From sequence record NC_054917.1: a stretch of 64,000 bases of DNA. One strand, written 5' to 3'. This document shows positions 42,593-49,873 of this stretch, in pieces. The notes under the pieces were generated by a model, which was not told the DNA's origin, ran no database searches, and worked only from the letters and a program-made list of their open reading frames with translations. The translations under genes were made by a program, and so were the position numbers. Positions within the stretch are counted from its first letter, which is position 1, and each line of letters starts with the position of its first letter. The DNA comes from Escherichia phage vB_EcoM_G50.

Positions 42593-44856
42593 TACAATTT
42601 ACACGCTGCGCAATCATCGGCTTTTGGAGTTTCTATTTCATAATCATCAGTACCGGAACCATCACGAGTATTATGATAATAGAAGTTTTTAATGCCATAA
42701 TACCATCCGTATAGCATGTCATCAATCATTATTGACATTGGAACCTTTCCTTTTGGAAAAATCTGCGGGTCATAGTATGTATTCGCTGAAGCTGATTGAC
42801 ATACCCATTTCAGCATAATAGCTACCTGCGTAAGATAAGGTTTATTACCTTTCTTAGCTAATTTCCATGTATAATCATAGAGGTCTATGTTATGCTCAAT
42901 ATTGGGCACGACTTGATTAAAGGAGCCCTCTTTTGATTCTTTAACAGAGACTGGTCCACGTGGAGGCTCGATACCGTTTGTACTGTTAGAAACTTGGGAA
43001 GATGACTCACATGGCATAAGTGCTGATAATGTGCTATTACGGATGCCAAAGAGCTTAAGGTCTTCCCGCAGCGACGACCAGTCACAAACGTATTTTGGAG
43101 CTGCGATTTGGTCAATCTTTTTATTGTACCAGTCGATAGGTAATTCGCCTCGAGACCAACGAGTGTCTGAATAATATTCGCAAGGTCCTTTTTCTTTGGC
43201 GAGCTTAATGGATGCTTTAATGAGTCCATACTGTAATCTCTCAAATAGTTCATGTGTTAAATCGTTAGCATCTTCATAAGAAGCAAAGTTACTTGCCAGC
43301 CAAGCTGCATAGTTGGTAACACCTACACCGAGGTTACGACGCTTTTTAGCTTTTTCTGCTTCAGGAACTGGATATCCTTGATAATCCAAAAGATTATCAA
43401 GAGCACGAACTTGAACTTCTGCCAATTCATTAATTTTATCTTGGTCTTGCCAGTCAAAATTATCTAGTACGAATGCAGAGAGAGTACACAATCCAATTTC
43501 AGCATCAGGACTGTTCACATCATTTGTTGGAATAGCAATTTCACAGCACAAGTTACTCTGACGAATAGGTGCCTTTTCACGAATAAACGGAGTATAGTTA
43601 TTCGTATTATCAATGAACTGCACATAAATCCTTGCTGTTCCTGAACGTTCAGTCATGAGCAATTCAAATAGTTCACGAGCTTTAATACGCTTTTTGCGAA
43701 TATTAGGGTCTTTTTCTGCTGCTTCGTATAATTCACGGAAACGGTCTTGGTCTTTAAAATAAGAATAATAAAGCTCGCCACCCATTTCATGCGGGCTGAA
43801 CAAAGTAATGTAATCATTCTTTCCGAATCGTTCCATCATCAAATCATTCAGCTGAACACCATAATCCATATGACGAATGCGGTTTTCTTCTACGCCTTTG
43901 TTATTTTTCAAAACGAGAAGATTTTCAACTTCCAAATGCCAAATAGGATAATAAGCAGTAGCAGCGCCGCCACGAATTCCACCCTGTGAACATGATTTAA
44001 CAGCAGTCTGAAAATGTTTCCAAAAAGGAATAACACCGGTATGGCGTACTTCACCCATGCCAATCTTAGAACCTTCGGCACGAATCATACCAACGTTAAT
44101 ACCAATTCCAGCGCGTTTAGAGATATATTCAACAATTGAAGCAGAAGCCTTATTGATAGACTTCAGCGAATCACCTGCCTCAATAACAACACATGAACTA
44201 AACTGTCGAGTCGGAGTACGGCAACCAGCCATAATAGGAGTTGGCAATGAAATCTGTCGAGTAGATACTGCTTCATAAAAACGGATAACATGTTTTAGTC
44301 TATCAACAGGTTCATCTTGATGCAATGCCATTCCAATAGTCATAAATGCAAACTGTGGAGTTTCATAAATTTGACCAGTGGTTTTATCTTTAACTAGATA
44401 TTTTTCTTTTAATTGCATCGCCCCGGAATAAGTAAATTCCATATCCCGCTCATGCTTAATTTTTGATTCTAAAAATGTAATTTCTTCGGCAGAATATTTT
44501 GACAACAATTCAGGGTCGTATTTACCTTCATTTACACAGTAAGAAATATGATCAATAAATGAACGTGGTTCATACTGCCCATAAACATGCTTACGAAGAG
44601 CGAACATTAAACAGCGTGCAGCTACATATTGATAATCAGGCTCTTCAACTGAAATAGAATTCGCAGCAGCCTTAATGACAATGGTTTGAATGTCATCAGT
44701 TGTCATTCCATCACGGAGATATGATTTAATATTTTCATATAATTCATAAGGATCTACAGATGTTCCTTCAGCTGCCCAAGATAAAACTTTAATAATTTTT
44801 TGCGGGTCAAAGCTCTGAGAAACACCACTACTTTTGATAACATTAATTAATTGCAT
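42592..44856 (-). CDS. nrdA: Ribonucleotide reductase alpha subunit NrdA
   Basis: 754 aa, T4 length; class I RNR large subunit. Confidence 0.95.
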   Translation of the reverse strand: MQLINVIKSSGVSQSFDPQKIIKVLSWAAEGTSVDPYELYENIKSYLRDGMTTDDIQTIVIKAAANSISVEEPDYQYVAARCLMFALRKHVYGQYEPRSFIDHISYCVNEGKYDPELLSKYSAEEITFLESKIKHERDMEFTYSGAMQLKEKYLVKDKTTGQIYETPQFAFMTIGMALHQDEPVDRLKHVIRFYEAVSTRQISLPTPIMAGCRTPTRQFSSCVVIEAGDSLKSINKASASIVEYISKRAGIGINVGMIRAEGSKIGMGEVRHTGVIPFWKHFQTAVKSCSQGGIRGGAATAYYPIWHLEVENLLVLKNNKGVEENRIRHMDYGVQLNDLMMERFGKNDYITLFSPHEMGGELYYSYFKDQDRFRELYEAAEKDPNIRKKRIKARELFELLMTERSGTARIYVQFIDNTNNYTPFIREKAPIRQSNLCCEIAIPTNDVNSPDAEIGLCTLSAFVLDNFDWQDQDKINELAEVQVRALDNLLDYQGYPVPEAEKAKKRRNLGVGVTNYAAWLASNFASYEDANDLTHELFERLQYGLIKASIKLAKEKGPCEYYSDTRWSRGELPIDWYNKKIDQIAAPKYVCDWSSLREDLKLFGIRNSTLSALMPCESSSQVSNSTNGIEPPRGPVSVKESKEGSFNQVVPNIEHNIDLYDYTWKLAKKGNKPYLTQVAIMLKWVCQSASANTYYDPQIFPKGKVPMSIMIDDMLYGWYYGIKNFYYHNTRDGSGTDDYEIETPKADDCAACKL

Positions 44857-45173
44857 AAGTCCTCAACTTGAAAATCGTCTTTAAACAATCGGTTAACTAT
44901 ATGAGCTATTATATCACCATGACACGGCTTTGGTTTACATGTGCATCCTAGCCTCATTCCACGTAAAGGCTCTAAATGTGCTTTAGTTATTTCTCCGGAT
45001 TTAATTCGACGTATAAAATCTTTTTTGAATAATTCAATGGCAGCCTCCCGGCTGCCAGCATCTTTACCGACGTAATTTCCCCAAAATGTACCACGGTGAA
45101 TATTAACATCAAAGTCGGATTTATATTTATTCACTACCCGGCATAGACGGCCCGCGCGGTAATAGTTCGTCAT
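44847..45173 (-). CDS. Hypothetical Cys/His-containing protein (nrdA.1 position)
   Basis: 108-aa ORF; [11 protein letters not shown] motif. Confidence 0.6.
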
Positions 45174-45402
45174 ATTGTTTTTCCGTTAAAACAGTAATAT
45201 CATAATAACAATCTGAAGAAGTTTTAACTGTAGAAATTTTATTGTCAAAATACTCACGAGTCATTTTATGAGTATAATATTTTTTGCCATAAATGATAAT
45301 AGGCTGTTCTGGCCCTGGAACTTCTAACTCGCTTGGATTAGGAAGTGTAAAAAGAACAACACCAGAAGTATCCTTAAATCGTAAAATCATATATCCTCTC
45401 AA
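45127..45402 (-). CDS. Hypothetical protein (nrdA.2 position)
   Basis: 91-aa ORF. Confidence 0.55.
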
Positions 45403-45413
45403 TTAAATTAAAA

Positions 45414-46274
45414 TTACACCGCCATCTTTCCTTTCAAGACACCATGGGACTGATAATCTTTGAGAACGAAATCTCGTGCTGTCATATATTCAGTTAACCA
45501 ATACATTTGAGTTTCAGTATCGCATTGACTGAATCCATTAGGCCAATTAATACTAAGTTTGCATAGATCCATAGGAGTTCTATTTAATATCTCTTTGCAT
45601 TGCTCAATATGGTTAGAATAAATGTGTGTATTACCACCCGAGAATACCAAATCGCCCGGAACTAGTTCACACATATCAGCAACAATATGCAAAAGAGCAG
45701 CATAACTCGCGATGTTAAATGGAAGACCGAGGAAAACATCTACCGAACGTTGATACCATTGGAGGTCAAGGTATCCGTTACGCACATTAAACTGATAGAA
45801 CATATGACAAGGAGGTAATGCCATCTGCTTGAGTTCAGCTGGATTCCATGCCGACACAATTTGACGCCTATCGTTGGGAAATGTTTTAATACGATTAACA
45901 ACTTCTACAATTTGATCTACACCACCAAAATCACGCCACTGTTTTCCGTAAATTGGACCAAGTTCACCGCTATGATAACCTAAGTCTTTGGCCTGGTTTT
46001 CGTAGTTTTCATCCCAAATTGTTTTTCCTGCAATTAAAGATCCATGAGTACGTTGACGTAAATCATTTACGTTAGTACTTCCTGATAAGAACCACAATAA
46101 CTCAGAAATACATGCATTCCAGGCGAGCTTCTTAGTCGTTACTGCAGGAAAACCTTTAGTTAAATCCCAGCGTAATTTAGTACCGAACAAAGCAATTGTT
46201 CCTGTGCCTGTTCGGTCATCAGTTTCATAGCCATTTTCAAAAATGTCTTTAATTAAATCTTGGTATTGTTTCAT
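45414..46274 (-). CDS. td: Thymidylate synthase (uninterrupted, no intron)
   Basis: 286 aa continuous ORF; recognised T4 TS sequence; no intron unlike reference T4. Confidence 0.95.
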   Translation of the reverse strand: MKQYQDLIKDIFENGYETDDRTGTGTIALFGTKLRWDLTKGFPAVTTKKLAWNACISELLWFLSGSTNVNDLRQRTHGSLIAGKTIWDENYENQAKDLGYHSGELGPIYGKQWRDFGGVDQIVEVVNRIKTFPNDRRQIVSAWNPAELKQMALPPCHMFYQFNVRNGYLDLQWYQRSVDVFLGLPFNIASYAALLHIVADMCELVPGDLVFSGGNTHIYSNHIEQCKEILNRTPMDLCKLSINWPNGFSQCDTETQMYWLTEYMTARDFVLKDYQSHGVLKGKMAV

Positions 46275-46318
46275 TTAGTACCTTATATAAATTATAATAC
46301 ATTTTATGAAGCTAATAA

Positions 46319-46666
46319 TCAATACGGTTTAGCATCAAATTTTCTTTCAATTTCAGGCGTAAAATACAATTCTTTACCACGCTTGGAAAAGCGACCAATA
46401 ATATGATAATTATTCTCATCAAACGTGATATTGCCGATATCCATAGCTTTCAACCAAATATCGATATTTCTGTCAAGCTTTATATCAAAATTCCAATACG
46501 GAGAACTATTACCGAAAATACTACAAGCGGATTCAGTGAAACAACTGCTATAAATCTTGTCTTTAGGAACTACTAATTGATAGACGCCTTTAATAAACTG
46601 AGGACCCTGCCAATTTGGTTGTTTCGCGTCTTTTTCTAATAGAATAGGGTAATAATTAAAATTCAT
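46319..46666 (-). CDS. Hypothetical protein inserted between frd and td
   Basis: 115-aa ORF; no recognisable domain; not present at this junction in T4 as I recall it. Confidence 0.6.
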   Translation of the reverse strand: MNFNYYPILLEKDAKQPNWQGPQFIKGVYQLVVPKDKIYSSCFTESACSIFGNSSPYWNFDIKLDRNIDIWLKAMDIGNITFDENNYHIIGRFSKRGKELYFTPEIERKFDAKPY

Positions 46667-46685
46667 ATTTTCCGTCAGTGTTATT

Positions 46686-47512
<827 letters not shown>

Positions 47513-47520
47513 ATTATCTC

Positions 47521-47856
47521 CTAATATAAAGGATCGGGAACATATCCACTGGCTTTAATCATTTTGATTAACGTTAGCAGTCCTTTATTAACTGCTTGTG
47601 AGATTTCATTAAAAACTTCATCACTAAAAAGTTCTAGCACACCCTTCTGAACTTTTAATTTACAGCCAACAATTTCGTCATCGCCTATAGTAAATTCGTT
47701 TCCGCCAATTCCACCGAAAAACTTAATTACGCCAGTTAACTGTGTTCCACGAGAATATGGGTCGTGTGATAAAGTAATATGAGTCACCCCAGGTACAGTT
47801 TTAAATTGACAGCGGATGTTTACTTGAGCAATTCCAGTTACATGAATGTCAGACAT
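47521..47856 (-). CDS. Hypothetical protein (frd.2 position)
   Basis: 111-aa ORF. Confidence 0.55.
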   Translation of the reverse strand: MSDIHVTGIAQVNIRCQFKTVPGVTHITLSHDPYSRGTQLTGVIKFFGGIGGNEFTIGDDEIVGCKLKVQKGVLELFSDEVFNEISQAVNKGLLTLIKMIKASGYVPDPLY

Positions 47857-48964: not shown

Positions 48965-49873
48965 TTAAAGGTCATTCAAAAGGTCATCCAGGTCCGTGTC
49001 ATCAGCACTAGATGAACTGCCAGAGCTTGAGCTCATAAAATCGTCTTCAGTTTTTGTATTGAAGTCATCAACATTGAATGCATCCAAATCATCAGCAACT
49101 TTATCAGCTTTCTTAGCGGCAGTCGCTGCGGCACCACCCATAGCAGCAGTTCCCATAACTTGACTAAACTTAGTGCTCAGTTCTTCAAACGATTTGAATT
49201 TATCTTTAGAAGTCATTTCAGAAAGGTCAACCATTTGTTCGAACAGTTCTTTCTGGAAAGATTCATCATCAATGTTTGGAATCGCAGATTGATTCAGGAA
49301 TTTAGATTCGTCGTAGTTACTAAAACCAGAAACTTGTTTAACTTTCAGTACAAAGTTAGCACCTTCCCACGGACAAGTTACATCAACCGGAGTTTCACCC
49401 ATTTCAACATCAACTGCAATCATTGCATTGATTTTATCCCAGATTTTCTTACCGAAACGGTATTTAAATACTTTACCTTCATTTTCTGGAGCAGCTGGGT
49501 CTTTTACTACAAGAATGTTAGCCCAGTAAGAAGTTTTACGTTTAACAAGACCGTACTCTTTATTGTCAGTGTTATACAAATCATTTTTACTGATGTACTG
49601 GCATACTGGACAAGAATCGTAATCACCGTGGGTAGATGAACAGTTTTCAATATACCATTTACCATTTTTCTTGAAACCGTGATTTACAAGAATTGCGAAT
49701 GGTGCTTGTTCATCATTTTTAGACGGAAGAAAACGAATTACTGCTTGACCGTTACCCGCATTGTCGAGTTTCAGTTTCCACTCGCCTTTATCTTCAGAAG
49801 AAAAACCACCTTTATTTCCAGCCAGTTTAGCCATTTGTGCAGCGAGTTCAGCAGTAGATTTACGTTTAAACAT
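48965..49873 (-). CDS. 32: Single-stranded DNA-binding protein gp32
   Basis: 302-aa ORF; recognised T4 gp32 incl. zinc site and acidic C-terminus; autoregulatory leader upstream. Confidence 0.95.

What the first reader, a model, noticed from the sequence alone, without database searches (positions are those of the whole stretch)
46319..46666. Extra 115-aa ORF inserted between frd and td
In T4 as I recall it, frd and td are directly adjacent and overlap. Here a 115-aa ORF with no recognisable motif sits between them, with 44-bp and 19-bp gaps on either side. Lineage-specific inserts in T-even nucleotide-metabolism operons are often anti-defence or host-takeover genes.
Basis: partly seen in the sequence, partly recalled or inferred. 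Interest (0 to 1): 0.45.

Follow-up and report, generated by a model that had tools for sequence, protein, structure and literature searches.

The report
Conserved small gene T4 has lost
The 115-codon gene between the phage's dihydrofolate reductase and thymidylate synthase genes is real and strongly conserved but of unknown function; most T4-like phages carry it, so laboratory phage T4 is the exception for having deleted it.

Summary
A 115-aa ORF lies at 46319..46666 (-), 19 bp after frd and 44 bp before an intron-less td. In T4 the two genes overlap by 4 bp with nothing between them.

The interpretation as a lineage-specific insert does not hold. The same protein (>=90% identity) is in 361 phage records, including T2, T6 and RB3. 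Family members lie between frd and td in ten other T4-like genera examined, mostly as two tandem paralogues. The T4 junction equals an exact 415-bp deletion between two copies of TAAATGAAA. About a fifth of Tequatroviruses carry an unrelated 68-aa ORF at the same junction.

My best guess, at low confidence, is a non-enzymatic OB-like binding protein co-expressed with DHFR and TS. An anti-defence role is not excluded. The GenBank label "putative homing endonuclease" has no support. This is an ordinary, already catalogued hypothetical gene of moderate-to-low interest.

The parts
46319..46666 (-). 115-aa protein-coding gene. It belongs to PHROG 1928 and is of the 'X1' (short) type within the family of frd-td intergenic small beta-barrel proteins.
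   Evidence: ORF. phrog_1928 at E 9.3e-36. It is 100% identical to an annotated hypothetical protein of phage SA20RB and 99% identical to those of T2 and RB3. dN/dS is 0-0.015. The AF2 model has pLDDT 79 and pTM 0.75, with strand/helix order b1-b2-b3-helix-b4-b5.
46667..46685 (-). 19-nt spacer between the frd stop and the ORF start. It contains a weak Shine-Dalgarno-like GGAA 5 nt upstream of the ATG (ACGGAAAATATG).
   Evidence: Sequence read directly. The same CGGAAAATATG is present in T2. That it acts as a ribosome-binding site is inferred.
46684..46692 (-). Upstream copy of the 9-bp direct repeat TAAATGAAA. It spans the frd stop codon (AAA TGA).
   Evidence: The T4 junction sequence equals the window's left flank, one repeat copy and the window's right flank.
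46269..46277 (-). Downstream copy of the 9-bp direct repeat TAAATGAAA, 415 bp from the first. It spans the td start codon (ATG AAA).
   Evidence: The repeat is also present at both positions in T2. T4, FL18 and ECO07P3 have a single copy, at the fused junction.
46275..46318 (-). 44-nt spacer between the ORF stop and the td start. It carries the td Shine-Dalgarno (AAGG) and an AT-rich promoter-like stretch (TTGATT-17-TATTAT, 9 of 12).
   Evidence: The spacer is identical in T2 and RB3. Promoter function was not tested.
46686..47267 (-). frd (dihydrofolate reductase), the upstream neighbour. It is context, not part of the finding.
45414..46274 (-). td (thymidylate synthase), intron-less, the downstream neighbour. 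It is context, not part of the finding.

Best explanation
WHAT IT IS (shown, confidence about 0.9). This is a genuine, expressed-type protein-coding gene of a phage-only family (PHROG 1928). The family is an old resident of the frd-td segment of T4-like phages of Enterobacterales. The commonest arrangement seen is frd-X1-X2-td, with two tandem paralogues that are often translationally coupled through overlapping stop and start codons. Tequatroviruses such as this one, T2, T6 and RB3 keep only X1. T4 has none, and its junction is what a 415-bp deletion between two TAAATGAAA repeats would produce. HOW IT WORKS (inferred, confidence about 0.3). The protein is a small, non-enzymatic, OB-fold-like beta-barrel, and the family is near-neutral to mildly basic and fairly rich in aromatic residues. 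Its invariant residues are Q16 and W19 in the b1-b2 loop, G27 and Y29 at the start of strand b2, and the G91-R92-F93-x-K95-x-G97 hairpin between b4 and b5. In canonical OB folds these elements border the ligand-binding face. I therefore propose that it is a binding module for single-stranded nucleic acid, a nucleotide-like ligand or a partner protein. It would be made together with DHFR and thymidylate synthase and would act as a dispensable accessory factor of the phage thymidylate/dNTP-supply module. One possible role is tethering or tuning DHFR-TS, acting as a homo-oligomer where only X1 exists and as an X1-X2 hetero-oligomer elsewhere. The binding partner and the phenotype are not known.
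For: Reality and constraint:
- 548 phage records carry a homologue, 361 of them at >=90% identity.
- dN/dS is 0-0.015, against 0.13-0.25 for frd and 0.05-0.09 for td exon 1 in the same genomes.

Fixed position:
- The gene lies directly after frd and before td in Tequatro-, Kanagawa-, Jiaoda-, Marfa-, Moon-, Karam-, Gelderland-, Winkler-, Roskilde- and Bragavirus, in Serratia phage Muldoon, and in T4-like metagenomic contigs.
- It sits next to annotated dihydrofolate reductase in Providencia and Morganella phages.
- The family HMM finds two adjacent members in 11 loci and one member in JD18, L014 and the Tequatroviruses.
- The NM4.3 paralogue pair aligns at E 2e-12.

Coupling:
- In S16, frd, X1, X2 and td each overlap the next gene by 4 nt. 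Overlaps of 1-20 nt occur in CC31, CBH8, PEi20 and JD18.

Phage-only, stand-alone family:
- Only 51 clusters were found among 1.84 billion representatives, nearly all 95-148 aa.
- No relative was found in 185,579 bacterial and archaeal species genomes with the X2-type patterns.
- IMG/VR hits lie only on 170-178 kb T4-like contigs.

Fold:
- The two independent AF2 models (X1 pLDDT 79, X2 pLDDT 87) share the b1-b2-b3-helix-b4-b5 order.

Charge:
- The median pI of the family is 8.6. This protein has pI 7.7 and 17% aromatic residues.

Deletion origin of the T4 state:
-.
Against: - No coordinates were available, so I could not check that the invariant residues really cluster on one face.
- T4 and RB69 lack the gene and have frd directly overlapping td, so DHFR/TS function cannot depend on it.
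- About a fifth of Tequatroviruses carry an unrelated 68-aa ORF in the same slot. That looks more like an accessory-gene cassette site than a subunit gene.
- Tight gene packing and ATGA overlaps are common throughout T4-like genomes, so coupling is weak evidence for a physical complex.
- No interaction, expression or phenotype data were found in the literature.
Confidence: 0.3

Rival explanations
1. Anti-defence or host-takeover accessory protein. A small dispensable binder neutralises a host factor such as a defence sensor or effector, or a host nucleotide-metabolism enzyme. It would sit in the frd-td operon only because that gives early or middle expression.
For: - The gene is dispensable: T4, RB69 and RB49 lack it in this region.
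- The frd/td junction is a polymorphic cassette site with three alleles in one genus: X, an unrelated 68-aa basic ORF (phrog_9550), or nothing.
- The protein is small and stand-alone, has no enzymatic motif and is confined to phages.
- It is nearly invariant within a genus but only 29-46% identical between named genera (62% to one unclassified T4-like contig). That pattern would fit adaptation to a host-clade-specific target.
Against: - Its position is fixed across ten other genera, and an old tandem duplication has been retained. That is unusual for fast-turnover counter-defence genes.
- dN/dS of about 0.01 shows no sign of an arms race within Tequatrovirus.
- It is not an acidic DNA mimic: pI is 7.7 and the family median is 8.6.
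- No anti-defence library was available, and no paper links this family to a defence system.
Confidence: 0.25
2. Nucleic-acid-binding regulator. An OB-like RNA- or ssDNA-binding protein controls translation or stability of the frd/td/nrd messages, or marks replication intermediates. It would not contact the enzymes themselves.
For: - The topology is OB-like, and the structural neighbours are dominated by ssDNA- and RNA-binding OB domains.
- Aromatic and basic residues are invariant: W19, Y29, R92, F93, K95.
- The family is mildly basic.
Against: - Net charge is only about +1, and several members are acidic.
- I looked for no conserved RNA or DNA target, and none is known.
Confidence: 0.12
3. 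Free-standing homing endonuclease or mobile-element ORF. Two BASEL GenBank records label it this way.
For: - It is variably present between T4 and T2-type phages.
- It sits in a region rich in homing endonucleases: I-TevI in the td intron of T4, RB3 and T6, and mobE next to nrdA.
- It is annotated 'putative homing endonuclease' in Bas38 and in FriedrichZschokke.
- The BASEL paper says such calls came from comparative genomics.
Against: - There is no match to any Pfam family at E<=10, which includes the GIY-YIG, HNH, LAGLIDADG and PD-(D/E)xK nuclease families.
- At 115 aa with a beta-barrel model it has no nuclease-like core.
- The position is the same across ten other genera, rather than the sporadic distribution expected of a homing element.
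- Purifying selection is stronger than on the neighbouring enzymes.
Confidence: 0.02
4. Spurious ORF in a non-coding spacer.
For: An ORF of this length arises about once per shuffled 64-kb window. Its third-position GC skew is weaker than in frd or td.
Against: - There are 15 synonymous against 0-1 non-synonymous differences between genomes.
- Homologues are recognisable down to about 27% identity, with invariant motifs.
- AF2 models are confident.
- The PHROG match has E 9e-36.
Confidence: 0.01

Closest known systems
PHROG 1928 (phage protein family of unknown function). GenBank hypothetical proteins such as T2 EcT2_00240 (BBF63391), RB3_232 (AIT72968), RB32ORF229c, and S16 gp155/gp154.
   Same: It is a direct sequence member. 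The match is E 9.3e-36 over residues 4-111, and it is 97-100% identical to the Tequatrovirus entries. It has the same position between frd and td.
   Different: Nothing differs; this is the same gene. The family has no assigned function, fold or name.
OB-fold ssDNA/RNA-binding and adaptor domains (Teb1 OB-B, bacterial SSB and PriB, RPA14/RPA32, Stn1/Ten1)
   Same: The predicted five-strand barrel has one helix between strands 3 and 4. These domains are similar in size, about 100 aa. The conserved aromatic and basic residues lie in the loops that form the OB binding face. The family occurs as tandem paralogues, reminiscent of heterodimeric small OB subunits such as RPA14/32 and Stn1/Ten1.
T4 gp32 as proposed organiser of the dNTP-synthetase complex. 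This comes from established knowledge of the Mathews-lab literature, recalled and not retrieved here.
   Same: It is an OB-fold protein encoded in the same gene neighbourhood (gene 32 is at 48965..49873 in the window). It is proposed to link nucleotide-synthesis enzymes to replication.
   Different: gp32 is essential, 301 aa, zinc-binding and well characterised. X is dispensable, and nothing shows that it contacts the complex.
Alternative small-ORF cassettes in the variable regions of T4-like genomes, for example the 68-aa phrog_9550 ORF at the same junction
   Same: It occupies exactly the same slot between the frd stop and the td start, and shows presence/absence polymorphism within one genus.
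   Different: The sequence is unrelated. The 68-aa ORF was seen here only in Tequatrovirus records and was not searched for elsewhere, whereas X is conserved across many genera.

Membership tests
PHROG 1928 (frd-td intergenic small protein family) | Significant match to the family profile over most of its length | tested here: met
   E 9.3e-36 and 123 bits, covering residues 4-111 against profile positions 2-125 of 126. The X2 paralogue of phage Q7622 hits the same PHROG at E 8e-36.
PHROG 1928 (frd-td intergenic small protein family) | Family signature residues: Q-x2-W, G-x-Y, and G-R-F-x-K-x-G-x4-F | tested here: met
   Q16, W19, G27, Y29, G91, R92, F93, K95, G97 and F102 are invariant or nearly so in alignments A1-A3 and A6.
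PHROG 1928 (frd-td intergenic small protein family) | Location between dihydrofolate reductase and thymidylate synthase genes of a T4-like phage | tested here: met
   Shown by the window and by 20 or more related loci.
OB fold | Five-stranded closed beta-barrel with topology b1-b2-b3-alpha-b4-b5 | tested here: inconclusive
   The secondary-structure order of both AF2 models fits this topology. Barrel closure and strand pairing could not be inspected, because no coordinates were returned.
OB fold | Significant structural superposition on solved OB domains | tested here: inconclusive
OB fold | Binding of ssDNA, RNA, oligosaccharide or a partner on the b2-b3/L12/L45 face | not testable with these tools
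   This needs EMSA, pull-down or a complex structure.
Homing endonucleases (GIY-YIG, HNH, LAGLIDADG, PD-(D/E)xK) | Presence of a recognised nuclease catalytic domain or motif | tested here: not met
   No Pfam hit at E<=10 for the protein. None of the 22 family members hits a nuclease family at E<=1.
Homing endonucleases (GIY-YIG, HNH, LAGLIDADG, PD-(D/E)xK) | Sporadic distribution among close relatives, with signs of relaxed selection | tested here: not met
   The position is fixed in many genera, and dN/dS is 0-0.015.
Known anti-defence proteins (DNA mimics such as Ocr/Arn; nucleotide sponges such as Tad/Acb2) | Sequence or structural similarity to a characterised anti-defence family | not tested
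   No anti-defence library was available. PADLOC holds defence systems only and gave no hit. BFVD structural neighbours are all uncharacterised T4-like phage proteins.
Known anti-defence proteins (DNA mimics such as Ocr/Arn; nucleotide sponges such as Tad/Acb2) | Strongly acidic surface (DNA-mimic subclass) | tested here: not met
   pI is 7.7 with net charge +0.6. The family median pI is 8.6.
T4 dNTP-synthetase complex components | Physical association with DHFR, TS, RNR, gp42 or gp32 in infected cells | not testable with these tools
   The only evidence is genomic: co-location and stop/start overlaps. Multimer modelling was not available.

The most novel reading that the evidence does not exclude
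X1 and X2 are previously unrecognised, near-universal small OB-fold subunits of the T-even thymidylate-cycle module. They would physically bridge DHFR and thymidylate synthase, or link them to gp32 and ssDNA at the fork. Decades of T4 genetics missed them only because the T4 lineage deleted the gene through a 9-bp-repeat recombination. That deletion allele may now be hitch-hiking on I-TevI-driven co-conversion of td exon 1.
Probability: 0.15. Interest if true: 0.55.

Novelty: already known. Interest (0 to 1): 0.27.

Why it matters
In itself it matters little. The ORF is already annotated as a hypothetical protein in hundreds of T-even genomes and grouped in PHROG 1928.

The useful correction is one of perspective. 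T4, the reference, is atypical at this locus, so 'extra relative to T4' does not mean 'newly acquired'. The family is strongly constrained, confined to T4-like phages, sits at a fixed position between DHFR and TS, and is often duplicated in tandem. It is still completely uncharacterised.

That makes it a reasonable, cheap target for a knock-out or pull-down experiment in T2 or T6. Such an experiment could reveal either an accessory factor of phage dTMP synthesis or a host-directed binder. The three-allele polymorphism at one junction, and its possible linkage to td-intron homing, is also a tidy small case study of how homing endonucleases may drag neighbouring gene-content differences through phage populations.

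Tried and rejected
- **Profile libraries.** Pfam at E<=10, NCBIfam at E<=10 and PADLOC gave no hits. Scanning all 22 family members against Pfam gave only scattered single-member noise at E >=0.04.
- **PDB sequence profile search.** The only result was a chance hit at E 0.9, to formin.
- **Structure searches.** Foldseek against PDB found nothing significant. BFVD returned only uncharacterised T4-like phage proteins. afdb50 was unavailable.
- **Full HMMER scan.** Four large proteins (P0027, P0062, P0063, P0068) matched in many stretches. Three are PKD or carboxypeptidase-regulatory-like repeat proteins and the fourth is an internally repeated sequence. I rejected them as additive weak repeat matches, not relatives.
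- **Bacterial genomes.** A scan with X2-type patterns matched 42 stretches, and none was confirmed. The mixed X1+X2 alignment was too diverse to derive patterns.
- **Literature.** Eight searches (phrog id, locus tags, frd/td phrases, anti-defence terms, the BASEL collection) found nothing on this gene.
- **Homing-endonuclease label.** I checked it and rejected it.
- **Link to td-intron status.** X occurs both with the intron (RB3, T6) and without it (T2, this window), so there is no strict link.
- **Second copy.** No other member of the family is in the window.

Full report
**1. The observation**

On the minus strand the window carries, in order:
- frd at 46686..47267
- a 115-aa ORF at 46319..46666
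- an uninterrupted 286-aa td at 45414..46274

In reference T4 (NC_000866) frd and td overlap by 4 bp (ATGA) with nothing between them. An ORF of this length turns up about once per shuffled 64-kb window, so length alone proves little. The evidence that it codes for a protein comes from comparison with other phages, below.

**2. It is not lineage-specific**

The 1.9-kb frd-ORF-td segment is 99.9% identical to Escherichia phages bov9_1 and bov10K1 (Tequatrovirus). It matches 562 phage records, 354 of them over at least 80% of its length.

A tblastn search with the protein finds 548 records, all covering at least 80% of it:
- 361 records are at >=90% identity. These include T2, RB3, Shfl2 and ime09. 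The same insert is in T6 and RB51.
- 187 records are at about 30-45% identity, in phages of Klebsiella, Enterobacter, Edwardsiella, Citrobacter and others.

I inspected 20 or more loci, and in every one the homologue lies between the dihydrofolate reductase and thymidylate synthase genes:

| Genus or source | Phage or locus |
|---|---|
| Kanagawavirus | Q7622, PEi20 |
| Jiaodavirus | JD18 |
| Marfavirus | P545 |
| Moonvirus | NM4.3 |
| Karamvirus | CC31 |
| Gelderlandvirus | S16 |
| Winklervirus | CBH8 |
| Roskildevirus | Cronus |
| Bragavirus | PM2 |
| Metagenomic T4-like contigs | L014, L016, L023 |

Serratia phage Muldoon shows the same arrangement, and in Providencia and Morganella phages the match abuts the annotated dihydrofolate reductase gene.

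**3. A tandem pair is the common state**

A family HMM run over all ORFs of the fetched loci hits two adjacent ORFs between frd and td in 11 loci. It hits one ORF in Tequatrovirus, JD18 and L014. It hits none in T4, FL18, ECO07P3, fPS-65, RB69 or RB49.

The two copies are paralogues:
- The NM4.3 pair aligns at E 2e-12, and the Q7622 pair at E 8e-5 over the C-terminal motif.
- Both types fall in phrog_1928.
- 'X1' is the short type, and the window's ORF belongs to it.
- 'X2' carries an insertion of about 17 or more residues with a P-T-I-x2-(Y/F/W)-K motif.

A metagenomic T4-like phage (L023) has an X1 that is 62% identical to the window's, followed by an X2. So Tequatroviruses most simply descend from a pair-bearing ancestor and lost X2. 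Identity of X1 to the window's copy falls from 62% to 29% across genera. Over the same genomes frd stays at 47-53% and td at 70-79%. This is compatible with vertical descent at a faster between-genus rate.

**4. T4 is a deletion**

The window has TAAATGAAA across the frd stop (46692..46684) and again across the td start (46277..46269), 415 bp apart. The T4 junction reads exactly as the window's left flank, one repeat copy and the window's right flank. FL18 and ECO07P3 have the same junction, and T2 has both repeat copies.

Given the phylogenetic distribution, deletion by recombination or slippage between the repeats is far more parsimonious than insertion.

Evenly spaced samples of about 50-57 Tequatrovirus records show three alleles at this junction:

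| Allele | Extra DNA | Share of sampled records |
|---|---|---|
| X (the 115-aa ORF) | +415 bp | about 65-75% |
| Unrelated basic 68-aa ORF (phrog_9550) | +206 bp | about 18-26% |
| T4-type overlap | none | about 6-9% |

The 68-aa ORF was characterised. RB69 (Mosigvirus) also has a direct frd/td overlap.

**5. It is a functional gene**

Among the window, T2, RB3 and Bas38 the ORF shows 7-15 synonymous but only 0-1 non-synonymous differences. That gives dN/dS of 0-0.015. In the same genomes frd gives 0.13-0.25 and td exon 1 gives 0.05-0.09.

The invariant residues across X1 and X2 from all genera are Q16, W19, G27, Y29, G91, R92, F93, K95 and G97, with F102 nearly so.

**6. What kind of protein it is**

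There is no Pfam, NCBIfam, PADLOC or PDB-sequence match.

An exhaustive HMMER scan of 1.84 billion cluster representatives finds only 51 clusters, nearly all stand-alone proteins of 95-148 aa. The few large hits are PKD-type repeat proteins or an internally repeated sequence and are spurious. No relative was found in 185,579 bacterial and archaeal species genomes. IMG/VR hits lie only on 170-178 kb T4-like contigs.

The AlphaFold2 models share one layout:
- X1: pLDDT 79.3, pTM 0.75
- X2 of PEi20: pLDDT 87.2, pTM 0.77
- Both run b1, b2, b3, one helix, then a long b4-b5 hairpin. This is the OB-fold order.

The family is near-neutral to mildly basic, with a median pI of 8.6. This member has pI 7.7 and 17% aromatic residues. 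It is therefore not an acidic DNA mimic.

**7. Mechanism**

*Shown:* this is a conserved, strongly constrained, phage-only small protein. It is encoded between frd and td and co-directional with them, often with overlapping stop and start codons. In S16 all four genes overlap by 4 nt.

*Inferred, about 0.3:* it is a non-enzymatic OB-like binding module. The invariant aromatic and basic residues lie in the b1-b2 loop, strand b2 and the b4-b5 hairpin, which border the ligand face in canonical OB folds. It would be made with DHFR and TS and would serve as a dispensable accessory factor of the thymidylate/dNTP-supply module. It might work as a homo-oligomer, or as an X1-X2 hetero-oligomer where both genes exist.

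*Against this view:* T4 and RB69 do without it. An unrelated cassette can occupy the same slot. Gene overlaps are common in these genomes. The fold assignment is weak.

*Rivals:*
- An anti-defence or host-directed binder, about 0.25. It fits the dispensability and the cassette polymorphism. It fits poorly with deep synteny, the retained duplication and the absence of arms-race signal.
- A nucleic-acid-binding regulator, about 0.12.
- A homing endonuclease, as labelled in two BASEL records, about 0.02. There is no nuclease motif, the position is fixed and selection is strong. The BASEL paper indicates that such labels came from comparative genomics.
- A spurious ORF, below 0.01.

**8. Comparison with what is known, and novelty**

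The gene is a plain member of PHROG 1928. It is already annotated as a hypothetical protein in T2 (EcT2_00240), RB3 (RB3_232), RB51 (RB32ORF229c), S16 (gp155/gp154) and elsewhere. I found no paper on it. It resembles small OB-fold domains in topology only, so membership of that fold class is inconclusive.

The finding is therefore an already catalogued but uncharacterised gene. What this analysis adds:
- T4 is the derived, deleted state.
- The family is old, positionally fixed and usually present as a tandem pair.
- It is under unusually strong constraint.
- It probably has an OB-like fold.

**9. Verdict**

Function remains unknown, with a low-confidence proposal. Interest is about 0.27.

Noticed in passing
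window 45414..46274 (-): td is intron-less here (286 aa, uninterrupted). T4, RB3, T6 and many other Tequatroviruses carry the group I td intron with I-TevI. X occurs with and without the intron.
   Followed up: partly
window 47267..47512 (-) and 47521..47856 (-): Two more ORFs lie between frd and frd.1 and have no counterpart in T4. One is 81 aa (phrog_3183, no Pfam) and overlaps the frd start by 1 nt. The other is 111 aa (Pfam DUF7247, E 5e-44). DUF7247 is also present at this position in other genera (L016, L023).
   Followed up: partly
L011 1698..1904 (Yersinia phage fPS-65); the same allele is in about 1/5 of sampled Tequatroviruses: An unrelated, basic 68-aa ORF (phrog_9550, unknown function) occupies exactly the same frd/td junction, overlapping both neighbours by stop/start codons. 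The junction therefore has three alleles.
   Followed up: partly
L002 (T4), L012 (FL18), L013 (ECO07P3); rows H93 and H227: All five distinct Tequatrovirus-like phages seen with the T4-type direct frd/td overlap (T4, G2133, FL18, ECO07P3, FN) carry the td intron. No intron-less phage in the sample has that junction. The junction lies about 525 bp from the I-TevI cleavage site, so the deletion allele may spread by co-conversion during intron homing. The sample is small and not independent.
   Followed up: partly
GenBank records MZ501052 (Bas38), MZ501067, PQ571308, NC_054937, OQ466432, PV390659: The annotations of this slot are inconsistent or wrong. X is called 'putative homing endonuclease', 'putative glucose-1-phosphate adenylyltransferase' or 'dihydrofolate reductase'. 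The 68-aa allele is called 'flagellar biosynthesis protein' in phage P8.
   Followed up: yes
L007 2480..2809 (+) (Citrobacter phage NM4.3): The X1 homologue (109 aa) is not annotated in the record. A 41-aa ORF on the opposite strand is annotated there instead.
   Followed up: yes
L009 1897..2511 (RB3): RB3 frd has lost its TGA stop (…ESVYKN…). It is annotated 11 codons longer and overlaps the start of X.
   Followed up: no
window 46915..46888 (-) and 46322..46294 (-): A near-consensus sigma-70-like promoter (TTGACC-16-TATAAT, 11 of 12) lies inside frd. A weaker one (TTGATT-17-TATTAT) lies in and just upstream of the 44-nt spacer before td. In X-bearing phages td might therefore have its own promoter, which the T4 arrangement lacks. 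These are consensus matches only.
   Followed up: no
L030 8384..8387 (RB69); L031 8075..8436 (RB49): RB69 (Mosigvirus) also has frd and td overlapping by 4 nt, with no family member. RB49 (Krischvirus) has two other small ORFs (30 and 89 aa) between frd and an unusually long td (410 aa). Neither ORF matches the family HMM.
   Followed up: partly
window 44847..45173 (-) and 45127..45402 (-): The nrdA.1 homologue is a DUF4326 protein and the nrdA.2 homologue a DUF5496 protein. Both are conserved small ORFs of unknown function between td and nrdA, as in T4.
   Followed up: no
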